A DNA stretch of 54,902 nucleotides from a virus (Duplodnaviria; Caudoviricetes), in the IMG/VR virus record IMGVR_UViG_3300020195_000031, positions 1-54,902 of that record. One strand, 5' to 3'. A program made the translations under genes and the position numbers. Shown piece by piece: positions 4,879-38,707 of this stretch. The notes beneath the pieces were generated by a model. That model worked only from the letters and a program-made list of their open reading frames with translations, did not search any database and was not told where the DNA came from. The first letter of the stretch is position 1, and each line of letters opens with the position of its first letter.

Positions 4879-5079
4879 TTAAATTGCCACGATCATTTTG
4901 ATTCTACCATCAGGTTGCTGTTCGGTTTTGTTGAGATTAAAGACGCGTTGATCGAGGGACATACAGGTCAGTGCTACTGCTGCAAAACCTTGTTTTGCTT
5001 CTAGCTCTGTCTCAGCACCTTCAACGAATACGTCCCATTTTCTGGATTCTTCGCAATACTCGAAGGTTACTTTGAACAT
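4879..5079 (-). CDS. hypothetical protein
   Basis: 66-aa ORF overlapping the helicase end. Confidence 0.5.
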   Translation of the reverse strand: MFKVTFEYCEESRKWDVFVEGAETELEAKQGFAAVALTCMSLDQRVFNLNKTEQQPDGRIKMIVAI

Positions 5080-7991: not shown

Positions 7992-8031
7992 AAAAGAAAA
8001 CGACGGCTAGACCGTACCGATCTAGCCGTCG
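7992..8031 (-). terminator. intrinsic terminator
   Basis: CGACGGCTAGA/TCTAGCCGTCG stem followed by TTTTCTTTT on the minus strand. Confidence 0.75.
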
Positions 8032-8042
8032 CGTCAGGAGGA

Positions 8043-8405
8043 CTAAAGTTCACAAACCTCTACGAGCACACAATCAGCTTTTTCTCCAACCTTGACAACC
8101 CGAACGGACTTGACGGGGATCGCCGGTTTGGAGACACCGTGTTTGCGGATTACCAACTCTCGTGCTTTTGGCATCAAGATACCCTTCCACCCAAACAATG
8201 CCTGATCTTCCATATCTCGACAAACCCACTTGACAGTACGACCGACGATACATGGAAGATAGATCAGACAATATAAGAATGGAGGATTTCCTTCTGTCAA
8301 TCCGACATGCAACTTCACCATTTTCGTCGGATCGTTTGCAGTTAGAATCATTCCCTCTGTGGGAGGGGCTTTCAGTGCAACATCATACTCTTCTTGCCAA
8401 GTCAT
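8043..8405 (-). CDS. hypothetical protein
   Basis: ORF from MTWQEEY overlapping the sigma gene end. Confidence 0.55.
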   Translation of the reverse strand: MTWQEEYDVALKAPPTEGMILTANDPTKMVKLHVGLTEGNPPFLYCLIYLPCIVGRTVKWVCRDMEDQALFGWKGILMPKARELVIRKHGVSKPAIPVKSVRVVKVGEKADCVLVEVCEL

Positions 8406-9063
8406 TTTTAGCACCCTTTTCAATTTCAAGAAATCTTTTTTCAATTGCTGTTCGCAATTGTGCAATTCGTTGAGGTGAGTAACACAAAATAGCACCGACT
8501 TCACGATCAGACAAGCCTTTAAGACGTAACCGAACAATCTCACGATCAACGGTTCCCGTACAAGCCTTGTCGATCATATCTCGCAATATTACACTATTTA
8601 GAAAACCAGCCTCAGCGATCTGCTCCGTGCTATCCTCACTCCGCGATGGGGGCCTGCGTTTCCCTTTGTATTTGCGGAATGTTGAATCAGGGACACGAAC
8701 ACAATGGTCATTGCAAAGGAACCTATCCAAATAGCTATGCACTGTTGCTATAATGTACGGCGTTATATTGTTGTCGTACATATTCTCTTTGGCCATACTG
8801 ACTGCTTCGGCGACAGCGAGAAAGCTCTCCGATACTAGATCGTTTGATTTTCGCAGCAGTCCCGAACGTGTCAAATAGCGGCCAACGATTTGTGAAGCTA
8901 TCCGAAGATGCCCTTGAATGATCGTATTCGCTACGCTCAGATCACCCTGTCTTAACCGGATCACCAGATTTTCAAGCTCAGTTGGGGATATAGGCTCTGG
9001 AAGCAATCTACTCATCCAGTGCTTGTAGCTCCTAGCCTTAATCCTCATGCGGCTAAGCAGCAT
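8383..9063 (-). CDS. RNA polymerase sigma-70-family factor (regions 2 and 4)
   Basis: LRQGD..VANTIIQGHLRIA..IVGRY...NDLVSE (region 2); DREIVRLRLKGLSDREVGAILCYSPQRIAQLR (region 4 HTH). Confidence 0.85.
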   Translation of the reverse strand: MLLSRMRIKARSYKHWMSRLLPEPISPTELENLVIRLRQGDLSVANTIIQGHLRIASQIVGRYLTRSGLLRKSNDLVSESFLAVAEAVSMAKENMYDNNITPYIIATVHSYLDRFLCNDHCVRVPDSTFRKYKGKRRPPSRSEDSTEQIAEAGFLNSVILRDMIDKACTGTVDREIVRLRLKGLSDREVGAILCYSPQRIAQLRTAIEKRFLEIEKGAKNDLARRV

Positions 9064-9790: not shown

Positions 9791-10272
9791 GATTTGCTCC
9801 AGATAGGTAAAACAGTATGCGTTAGACTGTTTTCGATTCTTGAGTCACCGACAGCACCTCCTTTTTAAGTAGTCGACGAACCTTTCGTCGTAGTTTTCTT
9901 TTAACGAATGCTCTCGCGGAACGAGCGTTCTGCGATTCGAAACTCGGTATCGACTCGTCCCGTTAAGCGTCTTGTGCTTCTCATGCGATCGCTCTCACTT
10001 CACGAGAATCAAACAAAGGTAGGTCACTTCGTTCCATCCAACATCCATTTGATTTTGGATGCAAAGCGACGACGACGATGAATGACGGATCGGCACATAC
10101 TCGATCTGCATCCAATTCTTCGTCGCTAAAATCTTTGCACGTACTCTGCCGTCTTGTCCTCAGTAGAAAGAGGCACAAATAACCTTTGACCGATTGCTAA
10201 TCCGTCTACTAACTGTTGTAGCATAATAGAGGAAACTGGATTGCATTTTCATTTTTGATGCTCCGGTGTAAA

Positions 10273-10458
10273 TTAGCTAACGTACCCGCACAGCAAAATC
10301 TCGTCCACACCAAACACCTGATTTTCGTCGCATTCGTTGCACTTGTAATTCTGAGCGTCTGGTTCACAACCAGCTTGCTCATGGCCGCAAGCAAGACAAA
10401 AGCCGATGCCTTCGTCCGCTTGTACTGCTCGTAGAACCTGTTCTAGTTTCAATTTCAT
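10273..10458 (-). CDS. zinc-ribbon protein
   Basis: GFCLACG..EPDAQNYKCNEC...VFG motif. Confidence 0.7.
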   Translation of the reverse strand: MKLKLEQVLRAVQADEGIGFCLACGHEQAGCEPDAQNYKCNECDENQVFGVDEILLCGYVS

Positions 10459-10670
10459 GAATAGTACTCGATAAGGAATTCAAGAACGTCTAAATGCTTC
10501 TCTTCCAATTCGTTGTACCGCGGCAGACCAGAATGAGCATCGCATTTGGTTATCAAATCTTTTTCCCAGTCTTCCATTTTGCGATACATTGAAATTTCCG
10601 GAGGCGGAAAATTGGCCAACGATTCTCGAACCAATGATGCCAATATTCCAATTTGATTAGGTTCTAACAT
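10455..10670 (-). CDS. hypothetical protein
   Basis: start trimmed to MLEPNQ (GGAG RBS); the longer ORF runs through RNA hairpins. Confidence 0.55.
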   Translation of the reverse strand: MLEPNQIGILASLVRESLANFPPPEISMYRKMEDWEKDLITKCDAHSGLPRYNELEEKHLDVLEFLIEYYS

Positions 10671-10695
10671 TTCGTTGCTCCAAAGGGTGTAGATT

Positions 10696-10734
10696 AAAAA
10701 GGTAGGGCCGGTGCAGCACGTACTGCACCGACCC
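10696..10734 (-). terminator. intrinsic terminator closing the candidate ncRNA
   Basis: ~13-bp stem GGGTCGGTGCAGT/GCTGCACCGGCCC with G-U pairs valid only on the minus strand, then TACCTTTTT. Confidence 0.75.
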
Positions 10735-11135
10735 GCCCCTTCACAAGAATAGACAGTAGTACCTGACGGTACTACTGCCTGAGTTTTTAAAATCCTTACG
10801 TCCAATCAGACCGGACTCAGGGAGGATTTGGCCGGGACATTCAATTCAAAACGATGCTGTCGGTCACGGTCGCCAACTCACTGTCGTCTTGAGTTTGGAA
10901 CCAACGGCGTCTCCATAGACATGAATCAATTGCTGCTTCGAGAGGTGTCAATTCACCTTATCCGACTTTTGGTCGGCACGCAAACTGCAACCCATTCGCA
11001 TTCGTTGATTGAAGAACCAATCGCCTATAGTCCATCAGAAGATTCCATAATCTTCCTTCGCTACTGCTTCGTGCGGTTACAGGAAAATTGATTCTGCCAT
11101 CAATTCCTGAATATCCTATTAACTTGCCAAGGAAC

Positions 11136-11158
11136 ATTTCTCAGAATCAAATCAATTT
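11136..11158. repeat. dispersed repeat ATTTCTCAGAATCAAATCAATTT
   Basis: identical 23-mer at 24653-24675; inverted partial copy at 11242-11260; tandem partial copy at 24638-24650. Confidence 0.85.
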
Positions 11159-11183
11159 TGATTCCGGCATCAGCCGTAACCTG

Positions 11184-11212
11184 ATGATAGGGCATTTGCT
11201 TAGCGTTGTCAA
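11184..11212 (-). promoter_or_regulatory. sigma70-type promoter
   Basis: TTGACA (11212-11207), 17-bp spacer, TATCAT (11189-11184). Confidence 0.8.
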
Positions 11213-11225
11213 GTGAGCAAAAAAG

Positions 11226-11234
11226 TTATCCACA
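11226..11234 (+). promoter_or_regulatory. perfect DnaA-box consensus
   Basis: TTATCCACA, intergenic, 13 bp upstream of the -35 element; single copy, could be chance. Confidence 0.35.
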
Positions 11235-11239
11235 TTTTA

Positions 11240-11704
11240 TCAATTGATTTGATTCTGGAAAAAACGATAGAACGTCCCGATATTGAGTTTGAAATCAGAA
11301 ACTTTGATGAGTGTCGGGCCAGTCGGATCGTAGATTCTAGAACCATCCCATGCAACTAAATGCCCCTTACCGCTTTCAGAATATGCTGTTATCAGTCCTT
11401 TAGATTGGAGTGTAATTTTCCAAAAATCAGGATGCTCGAATGTTCGACGCTCGGCCGTAAGTGGGTTGCAGACAGTGATGATTCGGTTATATGGTGACAG
11501 TGTTGCTTTTCGCTTCCAGCAACAAACCATCAACTCGTCTAAAAGAAAGCCGCGACGATTCGTCGGTTCGGGTGCATCCGGGAAAATAATCTCCGATCCG
11601 TCGTGGCCGATTTCCTGAACGAGAGCAAAAACGCTCTCGTTCAGGATCATCGCCAACGCTGTTATCGAACACGACCACCGATTAGGTTGTTTCAGTAGTA
11701 GCAT
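11240..11704 (-). CDS. papain-fold C39-like cysteine peptidase
   Basis: KQPNRWSC..TALAM (Q...C) and GHLVAWDG..IYDP (H...D). Confidence 0.7.
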   Translation of the reverse strand: MLLLKQPNRWSCSITALAMILNESVFALVQEIGHDGSEIIFPDAPEPTNRRGFLLDELMVCCWKRKATLSPYNRIITVCNPLTAERRTFEHPDFWKITLQSKGLITAYSESGKGHLVAWDGSRIYDPTGPTLIKVSDFKLNIGTFYRFFQNQIN

Positions 11705-11874
11705 TATCGCCTCTTGCAAGAGTGGTCTTTGCAGTAACAATCATCGCCGCACGGACAAGGAGAAGGCATTTCGTTAGCATGGTTGCAAAGGATTGGAGAA
11801 CGTCGATAGTTGCATGTTGGATTAGCGCAACCATTATCATTCCGTGCAGCACCGCACTCCTCGAACACTACCAT
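11704..11874 (-). CDS. Cys-rich small protein
   Basis: 9 Cys in 56 aa, ending CPCGDDCYCKDHSC. Confidence 0.5.
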   Translation of the reverse strand: MVVFEECGAARNDNGCANPTCNYRRSPILCNHANEMPSPCPCGDDCYCKDHSCKRR

Positions 11875-12046
11875 ATTTTGCTTTGTCGGTAGCCACCTCT
11901 TTTCGATTGATTTGAACATCACGGAGAAAATCGAAACTCAATCGAACCTTGTCTCCGTGGACAGCAACAACCTTAATAATTCCTAGAGGATTGGCTGGAT
12001 CGCCAATGACAATCTCTTCACCAATTCGGCGAGTCAGAGCGAGCAT
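11837..12046 (-). CDS. csrA: carbon storage regulator CsrA
   Basis: MLALTRRIGEEIVIG...VRLSF...VQINRKEV matches the CsrA/RsmA pattern. Confidence 0.9.
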   Translation of the reverse strand: MLALTRRIGEEIVIGDPANPLGIIKVVAVHGDKVRLSFDFLRDVQINRKEVATDKAKYGSVRGVRCCTE

Positions 12047-22769: not shown

Positions 22770-22841
22770 TACATCCGGCAGGACTCGAACCTGCGAATAG
22801 ATAGTACGAGACTATCCGCTTTGCCACTTAGCTACGGATGT
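22770..22841 (-). tRNA. tRNA or tRNA-like element, nominal anticodon UCG, non-canonical loop, no encoded CCA
   Basis: ACATCCG/CGGATGT acceptor stem, TAGCTAAGTGGCAAAGC D-arm, GATAG-TCTCGTA-CTATC anticodon arm, GCAGG-TTCGAGT-CCTGC T-arm. Confidence 0.85.
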
Positions 22842-24606: not shown

Positions 24607-24685
24607 GTGCAAGCTCCCTGTAGGGTGGTGAATGATGCCAGAATCAAATCGAATTTCTCAGAATCAAATCAATTTGCCGAATTTC

Positions 24686-24703
24686 ATCAATATCTTCTAG
24701 CCA
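24686..24703. repeat. 18-bp inverted repeat, right copy
   Basis: ATCAATATCTTCTAGCCA. Confidence 0.9.
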
Positions 24704-24740
24704 TCATATAATACGCCCATTTCCTACTTTTCTCTAATCG
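24701..24740 (-). promoter_or_regulatory. phage promoter-like motif, copy 1 (leftward replication operon)
   Basis: GATTAGAGAAAAGTAGGAAATGGGCGTATTATATGATGG on the minus strand. Confidence 0.7.
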
Positions 24741-24869
24741 TTCGCCTGATCGCGCGAGCCGGGCAGTTAGTGAATGAGAGGTAACCGGCAAGGCGTATAC
24801 TTTTCCTATTCTCTTTTTCTTTTTGTATACAACTACCTATAACTAAATAACTAACTAACTAAGAAAAAG
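24741..24869. other. candidate replication origin / AT-rich spacer
   Basis: T-tracts, two GTATAC sites and tandem TAAC repeats between divergent motifs, next to the primase-helicase. Confidence 0.35.
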
Positions 24870-24908
24870 GATTAGAGAAAAGTAGGAAATAAGCGTATTA
24901 TATGATGG
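24870..24908 (+). promoter_or_regulatory. phage promoter-like motif, copy 2 (rightward primase operon)
   Basis: GATTAGAGAAAAGTAGGAAATAAGCGTATTATATGATGG, 37/39 identical to copy 1. Confidence 0.7.
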
Positions 24909-24970
24909 AGAGATTGCTGCGTTTCACTCCACTGATTTGATTTTACATTTTGAGTCTAGGAACAATTCAC

Positions 24971-37825: not shown

Positions 37826-38214
37826 TAGGAGTATCTCCCATTTTCAATCAAGGGTAATTTTATAACAGCAACGTGCTGTTGTAAGGAAAGCTCCGACTCT
37901 AACGGGCGACCAAAATCTGAGGGCGAACGCACAACACTAGATTCTAGACTCAATTCATGACTCAAAACCCTACCAGCATTGATGCCAGAAGCAGCATCCG
38001 AAAGAGCAAGGGTTGAACCTAGTGTTTCGGCGTGTGTTCGGTGCATCGTTTGCGAGAGGAAAAGCGTGTCATCAATTTCTTTCTCGTGCGTTCGCCCTGA
38101 TGCCTGACTCAAAGACAATTCACTTTCAAGACTAAAATTCAATGCCATAGGTTCTCGATCAAATTGATGATCGAGAGCCAAGGCACTGATAATAGTTTTT
38201 TGAAAGATTGCCAT
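37825..38214 (-). CDS. virion protein with short L-x-L-S repeats
   Basis: repeats ESELSLSQ / DTLFLSQ / STLALSD / HELSLES / ESELSLQQ. Confidence 0.55.
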   Translation of the reverse strand: MAIFQKTIISALALDHQFDREPMALNFSLESELSLSQASGRTHEKEIDDTLFLSQTMHRTHAETLGSTLALSDAASGINAGRVLSHELSLESSVVRSPSDFGRPLESELSLQQHVAVIKLPLIENGRYS

Positions 38215-38215
38215 T

Positions 38216-38707
38216 TTAAGCACTCACACTGTAGGTGATTCTGAGAACATCGTCATCAATCACAGGCAGATTAGCAGAAAACAATGCAGTCGCCCACAAC
38301 GTAGCTGCACCAGTGCTACCCTTTGTGTCGATGCTCGCAATAAAGATACCACGAATGCCAACAGTGGCACTAATAGTGAAAACAACCGGCGCAGCATTTG
38401 TAATGACCTGACCCGATGCAGCTCCCTCAGTCCATGCTGGACGCGTCGCTTCATCATAGTCAGAGCTTTCCGTCCATCCTGAATGGGAAGCATGTGTATC
38501 TCCAGCAGCGAGGGCTGTGTACCCTGAATTGTTAATCAGGCCAACGTACCATGCAGGAATCTGCGTGGCCCCATTGAACATGATATTAAGCAGGGCATCC
38601 TTGCCCTGATTCGTAATATCGTTGTGAAAATCATATTCGCCGATTACTTTGCCGTTGCGAACGTGTTCAACAATGAACCGTCCCTTCAAAGATAATTTGT
38701 CAATCAT
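38216..38707 (-). CDS. virion structural (tail fibre anchor-like) protein
   Basis: HNDITNQGKDALLN...WYVGL...DDVLRITY pattern. Confidence 0.6.
   Translation of the reverse strand: MIDKLSLKGRFIVEHVRNGKVIGEYDFHNDITNQGKDALLNIMFNGATQIPAWYVGLINNSGYTALAAGDTHASHSGWTESSDYDEATRPAWTEGAASGQVITNAAPVVFTISATVGIRGIFIASIDTKGSTGAATLWATALFSANLPVIDDDVLRITYSVSA

What the first reader, a model, noticed from the sequence alone, without database searches (positions are those of the whole stretch)
10696..11212. ~480-nt structured non-coding transcript near phage csrA
Seen: a near-consensus sigma70 promoter (TTGACA-17-TATCAT) and a strong terminator enclose about 480 nt with no convincing ORF in an otherwise gene-dense genome. 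Minus-strand pairings include a 5' stem GGTTACGG/CTGTAACC, hairpins GAAGATT/AATCTTC (ATGGA at the loop), CCGAC/GTCGG and a 12-bp stem at 10752-10779. AAATCCT/AGGATTT crossed with CCTGAGT/ACTCAGG is pseudoknot-like. G-U pairs favour the minus strand. About ten GGA motifs occur, clustered in the 5' third. Known: CsrB/RsmZ sRNAs titrate CsrA via GGA loops. Inference: a novel early phage ncRNA, possibly forming a CsrA plus sponge circuit. GGA enrichment overall is modest.
Basis: partly seen in the sequence, partly recalled or inferred. Interest (0 to 1): 0.8.

Follow-up and report, generated by a model that had tools for sequence, protein, structure and literature searches.

The report
Phage promoter-terminator unit without gene
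A 480-base stretch of an uncultured phage carries a good promoter and terminator but no gene; it is probably a non-coding leader transcript that stops before the phage's sigma-factor genes, and nothing ties it to CsrA.

Summary
The anatomy is real. A TTGACA-17-TATCAT promoter (11212-11184, minus strand) is followed by about 480 nt with no credible ORF. Then come two 13-bp hairpins, the second with a U-run, ending 26 nt before the next gene. This is the largest ORF-free gap in the window. The "structured" claim is weaker. Without the two 3' hairpins the fold z-score is -3.66, and 3 of 41 background windows do as well. GGA is not enriched (10 against 7.3 expected), and only 2 of 10 GGA sit in hairpin loops. 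Rfam gives nothing. No homologue of the RNA body was found in any collection searched, so covariation could not be tested. New context: the promoter sits inside a 21-nt inverted repeat of an operator-like motif (GATTTGATTCTG) that recurs before a parB-like gene. In related phages the same motif and promoter lie between a conserved 154-aa gene and a phage sigma-factor gene. Here that gene pair is split by a 2.2-kb insertion that begins with this unit. Best reading (0.4): a terminated leader or insulator transcript that gates read-through into the inserted genes and the sigma gene. A CsrA sponge is unsupported (about 0.08). Interest is modest.

The parts
11242..11262 (+). Upstream arm of a 21-nt inverted repeat (AATTGATTTGATTCTGGAAAA). 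It holds the operator-like 12-mer GATTTGATTCTG at 11246-11257.
11184..11212 (-). Sigma-70-type promoter TTGACA-17-TATCAT (11 of 12). The start of transcription is inferred near 11177.
   Evidence: the start site is inferred, not mapped
11137..11157 (-). Downstream arm of the inverted repeat, at about +20 to +40 of the transcript. Positions 11136-11158 are identical to 24653-24675, just upstream of the parB-like gene.
10697..11177 (-). Predicted non-coding transcript of about 480 nt (leader). The core is closed by long-range helices: nt 46-58/434-446, 65-73/338-346, 74-85/273-284 and 87-95/250-258.
   Evidence: no ORF support
11084..11098 (+). Shortened operator-like site AATTGATTCTG. It pairs in the RNA model with 10923-10931.
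10923..10933 (-). Operator-like half site (AATTGATTC).
11031..11056 (-). Cluster of three A(N)GGA motifs. It includes the 7-bp hairpin GAAGAUU-AUGG-AAUCUUC (11038-11055) and is the only plausible CsrA-type site cluster.
   Evidence: it is 1 of 10 such clusters on the minus strand
10751..10780 (-). First 13-bp hairpin, with a weak U tail. It could be a pause site, a processing site or a weak terminator.
10696..10741 (-). Intrinsic terminator: 13-bp stem at 10734-10705 (9 GC), extendable by AAGG/CCUU, then a U-run at 10700-10696.
10455..10670 (-). First gene after the terminator (71 aa; GGAG 7 nt before the ATG). No promoter-like site lies between the terminator and this gene.
11240..11704 (-). 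Upstream conserved gene of 154 aa (166 aa from the first TTG), family unknown. In related phages it is the partner of the sigma gene.
8383..9063 (-). Phage sigma-70-family factor (226 aa). In relatives it directly follows the 154-aa gene; here it lies 2177 nt away.
11837..12046 (-). Phage csrA homologue (69 aa).

Best explanation
This is a lineage-specific, ORF-free transcription unit that works mainly in cis. A host-type (sigma-70) promoter is bracketed by two inverted copies of a phage operator. In related phages this promoter stands directly before the phage sigma-factor gene. Here it is followed by about 480 nt of moderately structured non-coding RNA and two successive hairpins, the second an intrinsic terminator. 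Transcripts from this promoter, and from the long upstream operon that has no terminator of its own, should therefore mostly stop 26 nt before the next gene. That would yield a discrete RNA of about 480 nt. The inserted small genes, and probably the sigma-factor gene, would then depend on read-through or antitermination. The RNA is thus a terminated leader or insulator, and the unit acts as a timing and dosage gate in front of the sigma module.

Shown: the sequence anatomy, the absence of coding signal, and the synteny and operator conservation in relatives.

Inferred: that the promoter and terminator work in the unknown host, that the operator binds a repressor, and that read-through is regulated.
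For: The promoter and tandem terminators are on the same strand as all neighbouring genes. The only strong minus-strand terminators in 1-24.6 kb are this pair and 8032-8000, which together bracket the module that holds the sigma gene. Between the terminator and the 71-aa gene there are 26 nt with an SD sequence and no promoter-like site. The next promoter-like sites are weak (9 of 12) and lie after the 61-aa gene. The terminator stem has pair probability 0.99, so no thermodynamic alternative fold competes with it.

In 30 related loci that hold both genes, the sigma gene starts 300 nt or less after the 154-aa gene in 24, and 301-1062 nt after it in 6. In the window the distance is 2177 nt. The operator word ATTGATTTGATT lies just after the 154-aa gene in 9 of 85 related loci. 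In L004 and L051 copies flank the spacer's promoter-like region. The operator 12-mer occurs 4 times in the window against 0.85 expected: 2 bracket this promoter and 2 lie in tandem before the parB-like gene.

There is no coding signal and there are no protein homologues.
Against: There are no expression data of any kind. The host is unknown, so promoter and terminator function are extrapolated from the E. coli-type consensus. No antiterminator gene (Q-, N- or LoaP-like) was recognised among the 41 proteins scanned, and no nut-, put- or boxA-like element was recognised by eye. A pure terminated leader needs only a few dozen nucleotides, so 480 nt with 9-12-bp long-range helices (P 0.98-0.99) is more than this model requires. 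The terminator's U-run is separated from the core stem by 4 nt, so its efficiency is uncertain. The weak promoter-like sites at 10272-10223 could serve the sigma gene on their own.
Confidence: 0.4

Rival explanations
1. A stand-alone, trans-acting structured non-coding RNA of a new family. Its target is unknown and is not CsrA. It would be made as a discrete 480-nt species, and its fold would be the functional part.
For: It has its own promoter and terminator. The core fold has z -3.66 on the sense strand against -2.46 on the antisense strand. Long-range helices of 12, 9 and 9 bp have P of 0.68 or more, and two of them reach 0.98-0.99. There is no ORF.
Against: The fold is not exceptional for this genome: 3 of 41 background windows are as good, and a coding stretch reaches z -6.59. 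One of the long helices is simply two inverted operator half sites. There is no Rfam match. No homologue was found in any collection searched. No outstanding antisense target appears among 74 phage translation-start regions: 5 of 40 shuffled RNAs did as well.
Confidence: 0.2
2. Non-functional filler. The 2.2-kb insertion would be decaying accessory DNA. The promoter would be the ancestral sigma-gene promoter, and the terminator a module boundary brought in by recombination. The RNA in between would have no role of its own.
For: The insertion is 48% ORF-free (569 + 482 of 2177 nt) against 5.4% for the window. It holds the two largest gaps. Its genes (71, 61 and 151 aa) and the RNA are absent from all 85 related loci. 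The junction takes other insertions in 4-6 relatives. GC content equals the genome's, 0.468 against 0.462.
Against: No remnant of any gene is detectable: 22 stop-to-stop segments gave nothing below E 0.02 against 393 kb of related loci. Four metagenome runs from four studies hold the stretch without a single difference, although these are near-identical strains. Two perfect or near-perfect 13-bp hairpins and an 11/12 promoter do not look like decay.
Confidence: 0.22
3. A CsrA-binding RNA. It would be either a sponge for the phage or host CsrA, or a leader whose termination or downstream translation is set by CsrA bound at the A(N)GGA cluster near nt 120-150.
For: The phage csrA is 650 nt upstream and aligns over residues 1-52 with solved CsrA proteins. 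There are 7 A(N)GGA sites against 3.27 +/- 1.94 in background windows. Three of them lie within 30 nt at 11031-11056, one in a 7-bp hairpin loop. A second UAUGGA hairpin loop sits at nt 265. MAGs of candidate host clades carry 8-10 CsrA-family genes.
Against: GGA density is 1 per 48 nt, against about 1 per 16-17 nt in CsrB and RsmZ (recalled figure). It is 10 against 7.3 expected, and 23% of background windows reach this. Only 2 of 10 GGA are in loops, and 5 of 10 are fully paired with P(unpaired) 0.02 or less. The triple cluster is 1 of 10 on this strand. No Csr/Rsm Rfam family matches at E <= 10. A sponge encoded beside its own CsrA lacks an obvious logic.
Confidence: 0.08
4. The unit encodes one or more very small proteins, for example the 59-aa ORF that starts 6 nt after the operator, or its inner start MDYRRLV.
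For: The ORF 11137-10958 is on the transcribed strand and starts just after GAGAA.
Against: Its codon log-odds of -0.113 equal the wrong-frame null. It has no Pfam, PHROG or 5.8-billion-protein homologue. The SD sequences are poor or absent. The start region lies inside a P 0.98 helix.
Confidence: 0.05

Closest known systems
Lambda PR'-tR' leader ('6S' transcript) and similar promoter-proximal terminated leaders of lambdoid late operons (recalled from textbook knowledge, not from a call)
   Same: A constitutive-looking promoter is followed by an ORF-free leader and an intrinsic terminator directly in front of a gene block. A short discrete RNA is made unless termination is overcome.
   Different: This unit is 480 nt rather than about 200. 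It stands before a sigma-factor module, not structural genes. No Q-like protein or Q-binding element was recognised. The promoter is bracketed by operators.
Phage 'morons': independent promoter-gene-terminator units inserted between genes that are adjacent in related phages (recalled concept)
   Same: It lies between two genes that are neighbours in 24 of 30 related loci, and it has its own promoter and terminator.
   Different: It carries no protein-coding gene. The promoter seems ancestral to the site, since the operator motif is shared with relatives, rather than imported.
CsrB/CsrC/RsmX/Y/Z sponge RNAs
   Same: It is non-coding, has a Rho-independent terminator and some A(N)GGA motifs, and a csrA gene lies nearby.
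   Different: Its GGA density is about three-fold lower than in these sponges and is not above the genome background. Most GGA are base-paired in the model. No Rfam match was found.
Type III toxin-antitoxin RNAs (ToxI-like): promoter, RNA, terminator, then a gene
   Same: The order of parts is the same: promoter, non-coding RNA, terminator, then an ORF immediately after.
   Different: There are no tandem repeats in the RNA. The downstream protein is 71 aa and has no ToxN-like family hit.

Membership tests
CsrB/Rsm-type CsrA sponge RNA | Many GGA / A(N)GGA motifs, far above background (about one per 15-25 nt; recalled figure) | tested here: not met
   There are 10 GGA in 485 nt against 7.31 expected, and 23% of background windows have 10 or more. 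A(N)GGA sites number 7 against 3.27 +/- 1.94.
CsrB/Rsm-type CsrA sponge RNA | GGA motifs presented in hairpin loops or single-stranded stretches | tested here: not met
   Only 2 of 10 GGA are in hairpin loops. Five of 10 have P(unpaired) of 0.02 or less on all three bases. This rests on a model, not on probing.
CsrB/Rsm-type CsrA sponge RNA | Match to a curated Csr/Rsm covariance model | tested here: not met
   No such family appears among 5 chance-level Rfam matches at E <= 10, and none at the gathering score.
CsrB/Rsm-type CsrA sponge RNA | Binds CsrA with high affinity and titrates it | not testable with these tools
   This needs EMSA or co-immunoprecipitation.
Intrinsic (Rho-independent) terminator | GC-rich stem-loop followed by a U-run | tested here: met
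   10734-10705 has 13 pairs, 9 of them GC, with tail TACCTTTTTA and P(pair) 0.99. The U-run starts 4 nt after the core stem.
Sigma-70-type promoter | -35 and -10 hexamers near consensus with a 16-18-nt spacer | tested here: met
   TTGACA-17-TATCAT, 11 of 12. There are 2 such sites in the window against 0.81 in shuffles. Activity was not tested.
Lambdoid terminated late leader with Q-type antitermination | An antiterminator protein gene and its binding or pause element at the promoter | tested here: inconclusive
   No antiterminator family appears among the Pfam hits of 16 proteins or the PHROG hits of 41 proteins. Many neighbours are of unknown function, and the record is only 58% complete.
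Phage moron | Inserted between genes that are adjacent in related phages, with its own promoter and terminator | tested here: met
Phage moron | Carries a protein-coding gene | tested here: not met
Type III antitoxin RNA (ToxI-like) | Tandem direct repeats of about 30-40 nt | tested here: not met
   TRF at minimum score 30 reports no array in 10696-11212. There is no direct-repeat family longer than 18 nt.
Known large structured RNAs of phages and bacteria in Rfam (GOLLD, ROOL, HEARO, OLE, group I/II introns, ribozymes) | Match to the family covariance model | tested here: not met

The most novel reading that the evidence does not exclude
The RNA is a CsrA-responsive leader. Phage (or host) CsrA would bind the A(N)GGA cluster at nt 120-150 and the UAUGGA loops of a new 480-nt RNA. 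That binding would set how much transcription passes the tandem terminators into the phage's sigma-factor module. The result would be an RNA-protein timer coupling an early csrA gene to the late-gene switch, in a phage of a CsrA-rich host clade (possibly Planctomycetota).
Probability: 0.07. Interest if true: 0.7.

Novelty: new member of a known kind. Interest (0 to 1): 0.3.

Why it matters
If the leader reading holds, this phage shows how a regulatory junction can be rebuilt. A repressor-controlled promoter in front of the phage sigma factor is conserved across many uncultured phages. Here a non-coding, terminated transcript has been inserted, which would delay or damp the switch to sigma-dependent genes. 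That is a small, ordinary addition to what is known of phage timing circuits. It would matter more only if the RNA proves to act in trans or to bind CsrA, because no phage-encoded partner RNA for a phage CsrA is described in the papers I saw. Those were passages of PMC7366521, which reports csrA in 30 of 2517 phage genomes, and the listings. This is not an exhaustive search. The operator motif and the conserved gene pair (154-aa gene and sigma factor) are the more reusable results.

Tried and rejected
HOMOLOGUE SEARCHES FOR THE RNA, ALL EMPTY:
- blastn (words of 11) against 50,697 phage records and 72,556 plasmids.
- blastn and nhmmer against 82 related loci, then 3 MAG loci and 119 motif-fetched loci.
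- Whole genomes of 3 MAGs.
- 401 genomes of the phylum of the Pirellulales MAG. 8 of 401 had only 20-30-nt matches at per-genome E of 5.6e-4 to 8e-3, and 3 of these lay in the operator part, nt 4-48.

SCANS FOR CLOSE RELATIVES OF THE PHAGE:
- The 166-aa protein gave 2 loci at 34-35% identity.
- The 71-aa protein gave none.
- The NYN protein gave none.
- The metagenome scan gave 80 loci, best 41% identity.
- The genome scan gave 3 loci.
No relative was close enough to align the RNA, so covariation was not tested.

SEQUENCING RUNS: no RNA holder was listed. Four DNA runs (microbial mat metagenomes, four studies, one possibly the source) hold the stretch as contigs, with no other letters, indels or joints. 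This gave no variation to use and no sign of an inverted promoter segment.

OTHER NEGATIVE RESULTS:
- The viral scan for the operator word returned more than 119 single, chance-like hits. None encoded a relative of the window's proteins.
- The antisense-target scan showed nothing beyond shuffles.
- blastn-short of the RNA against the window showed only the operator copies.
- The two ORF-poor gaps are not paralogous.
- The 71-aa gene's in-frame extension to TTG 10805, which would make the terminators coding, was rejected. Its codon score is -0.069 against +0.180 for the 71-aa part, and the Atlas holds the 71-aa form.
- An invertible promoter switch was considered because 21-nt inverted repeats flank 84 nt. 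It was rejected because the same motif occurs as tandem direct copies elsewhere and no joint was seen.

ADMINISTRATIVE: the earlier-findings tool was not open. One search timed out and was repeated.

Full report
WHAT THE WINDOW IS. The window is one IMG/VR virus record of 54,902 bp, classed as linear and about 58% complete. Its large terminase is at most 25% identical to that of any phage in GenBank. Four microbial-mat metagenome runs hold the stretch. Genes 1-24.6 kb all run on the minus strand and encode replication and nucleotide-metabolism functions: class II ribonucleotide reductase, family A DNA polymerase, helicases, ligase, two ParB-like proteins, an NYN protein and a CsrA homologue. 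A tiling of ORFs of 55 aa or more covers 94.6% of the window.

THE OBSERVATION. On the minus strand the promoter TTGACA-17-TATCAT lies at 11212-11184 (11 of 12), 28 nt after the stop of the upstream gene (11240). About 480 nt further on lie two 13-bp hairpins. The first is 10780-10751 with a weak tail. The second is 10734-10705 (9 GC pairs) followed by a U-run. The next gene starts at ATG 10670 with GGAG 7 nt upstream. Its in-frame extension to TTG 10805 has a null-like codon score (-0.069 against +0.180), and the ESM Atlas holds the 71-aa form. Sites of 11/12 or better number 2 in the window against 0.81 in shuffles. The hexamers alone are therefore not remarkable, but their position is. The gap 10671-11239 is the largest ORF-free gap of the window.

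CODING TESTS. The longest ORFs inside are 59 aa (minus) and 87 aa (plus). They score -0.113 and -0.179 in codon log-odds. Wrong-frame ORFs score -0.125 +/- 0.152 (n = 298), and presumed small genes mostly score +0.1 to +0.3. They have no Pfam or PHROG hit and no homologue in the 5.8-billion-protein collection. Twenty-two stop-to-stop segments of all six frames found nothing below E 0.02 in 393 kb of related loci or in the rest of the phage. I take the region as non-coding.

STRUCTURE. The full 485 nt folds with z -7.62 on the sense strand and -5.79 on the antisense strand. Without the two 3' hairpins, the core 10785-11180 gives -3.66 and -2.46. Forty-one other 396-nt windows of the minus strand give mean -1.42 and sd 1.71. 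Three of these are at or below -3.66, and one of the three is a coding stretch that the tool scores at -6.59. The model has high-probability long-range helices: nt 74-85/273-284 (12 bp), 65-73/338-346 (9 bp), 46-58/434-446, and 87-95/250-258. The last of these consists of two inverted operator half sites. His 5' stem is not in the MFE, and the pseudoknot cannot be judged. So the RNA is plausibly structured, but not beyond what this genome's background shows.

CsrA LINK. The csrA homologue (11837-12046) is real: Pfam E 1.3e-12, and it aligns over residues 1-52 to solved CsrA proteins. The RNA has 10 GGA against 7.31 expected, and 23% of windows reach that. In the first 160 nt there are 6, reached by 3.1% of windows. 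Seven GGA are of the A(N)GGA kind, against 3.27 +/- 1.94. The triple at 11031-11056 is 1 of 10 such clusters on this strand. Two of 10 GGA sit in hairpin loops, both as UAUGGA. Rfam gives only one tRNA in the window at gathering scores, and five chance-level matches in the region at E <= 10, none of them Csr/Rsm. csrA is absent from all 85 related loci, so no co-occurrence test is possible. Passages of PMC7366521 report csrA in 30 of 2517 phage genomes. The listings showed no phage-encoded sponge, but I did not search exhaustively. The sponge idea is not excluded, but it has no positive support.

CONTEXT THAT CHANGES THE READING.
- Operator motif. The promoter lies inside a 21-nt inverted repeat, 11137-11157 and 11242-11262, 90% complementary with 84 nt between the arms. 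Its core, GATTTGATTCTG, occurs 4 times in the window against 0.85 expected. The other two copies are tandem, 20 nt apart, just before the parB-like gene, and 23 nt are identical between the two places. The 9-mer TTTGATTCT occurs 12 times against 1.16 expected. AATTGAT is 17-fold denser in 10690-11270 than in the window as a whole.
- Conserved gene pair. The upstream 154-aa gene belongs to a family found in 2 viral, 80 metagenome and 3 MAG loci at 25-54% identity. It has no Pfam or PDB relative. In these loci the next gene is the homologue of window 8383-9063 (tblastn down to E 6e-28). A profile of 12 members matches solved sigma factors: SigF 1l0o_C at E 3e-21, and RpoS and RpoD at about 1e-12.
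- Spacing. Among the 30 loci where both genes are detected, the extrapolated spacing is 300 nt or less in 24 and 301-1062 nt in 6. In the window it is 2177 nt.
- Operator in relatives. The word ATTGATTTGATT lies just after the 154-aa gene in 9 of 85 loci. By my arithmetic, about 0.05 chance copies are expected in 393 kb. In L004 and L051 copies flank the spacer.
- The insertion. It holds the RNA unit, genes of 71 and 61 aa, a second ORF-poor gap (9791-10272, z -3.07), and genes of 151 and 92 aa. None of these is found in the related loci.
- Terminators. The only strong minus-strand terminators in 1-24.6 kb are the pair at 10780/10734 and one at 8032-8000, after the sigma module.

MECHANISM. 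Taken together, the promoter is most simply the ancestral, operator-controlled promoter of the sigma-factor module. In this phage it now runs into 480 nt of non-coding RNA and a tandem terminator. Transcripts from it, and from the upstream operon, which has no terminator before this point, should end at about 10697. The 71-aa and 61-aa genes have no promoter-like site of their own. They therefore depend on read-through, and the sigma gene probably does as well. I therefore read the RNA as a terminated leader or insulator, with confidence 0.4. The terminator stem has P 0.99 in the ensemble, so any regulation would be by a factor, not by a riboswitch-like refolding. No such factor was identified. 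The length and the long-range helices leave room for a function of the RNA itself (0.2) or for CsrA binding (0.08). The high non-coding share of the insertion leaves room for mere filler (0.22), and a small protein is unlikely (0.05).

LIMITS.
- No homologue of the RNA body was found by any route.
- No RNA data exist here.
- The host is unknown. Relatives of the gene pair lie in MAGs labelled Pirellulales, Thermoguttaceae and Gammaproteobacteria. The two planctomycete MAGs hold 10 and 8 CsrA-family matches, and the phage CsrA is 46% identical to the nearest.
- The comparisons with lambda 6S, morons, ToxI and the Csr/Rsm site densities are recalled knowledge, not results of calls.
- Supplementary tables of PMC7366521, which list the csrA-bearing phages, could not be seen.

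VERDICT. This is a real, orphan, ORF-free promoter-to-terminator unit. I class it as a new member of a known kind (a phage leader or non-coding moron-like unit). The CsrA-sponge interpretation is unsupported. Interest 0.3.

Noticed in passing
window 11142-11153(-), 11246-11257(+), 24639-24650(-), 24659-24670(-); the 9-mer also at 4897, 6190, 10005, 28200, 28405, 28413, 35654, 49856: An operator-like motif is over-represented. GATTTGATTCTG occurs 4 times against 0.85 expected, and TTTGATTCT 12 times against 1.16. It brackets the promoter studied here and stands in tandem before the parB-like gene. Several copies lie 20-50 nt upstream of start codons on the same strand. The binding protein is unknown.
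   Followed up: partly
window 11240-11704 and 8383-9063; loci L003-L087: A 154-aa protein of unknown family (invariant Cys and His residues, no Pfam or PDB match) and a phage sigma-70-family factor form a conserved adjacent gene pair. The pair occurs in many uncultured phage contigs and in MAGs labelled Pirellulales, Thermoguttaceae and Gammaproteobacteria. The operator word ATTGATTTGATT is conserved in their spacer in 9 of 85 loci, although the proteins are only 25-40% identical.
   Followed up: partly
window 9791-10272: A second ORF-poor gap of 482 nt lies 400 nt downstream of the first, inside the same 2.2-kb insertion. Its fold has z -3.07. It holds only 27-32-aa ORFs with some SD-like sequences, one TTTGATTCT copy and weak promoter-like sites at 10272-10223. 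It shows no similarity to the first gap.
   Followed up: partly
window 24696-24742 and 24867-24913: A 47-nt inverted repeat (89% complementary, 124 nt between the arms) lies in the 343-nt divergent intergenic region between the leftward operon and the primase-helicase gene. There are mirror-image promoter-like sites (TAGAGA-17-TATTAT on both strands) and an AT-rich TAAC/TAGT tract. This is a candidate divergent early-promoter or origin region.
   Followed up: no
window 37900-38295 (minus strand): A stretch spanning two overlapping ORFs in the tail-gene region folds far better than shuffles (z -6.59 by the tool, -7.94 in my scan). This is stronger than the core of the RNA studied here, and the reason is unknown.
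   Followed up: no
window 8000-8032 (minus strand): The strongest terminator-like hairpin of the left arm (15 pairs, 9 GC, tail TTTCTTTTAA) lies just after ORF 8043-8549. It closes the module that contains the sigma-factor gene.
   Followed up: no
genomes G001 and G002 (MAGs behind L086, L087): The Pirellulales and Thermoguttaceae MAGs hold 10 and 8 matches to the CsrA family (Pfam PF02599), nearly all above the cut-off. This is an unusually large CsrA complement in the clades that may host relatives of this phage.
   Followed up: no
window 22770-22841: A single tRNA-Arg (anticodon TCG) gene lies on the minus strand between replication genes.
   Followed up: no
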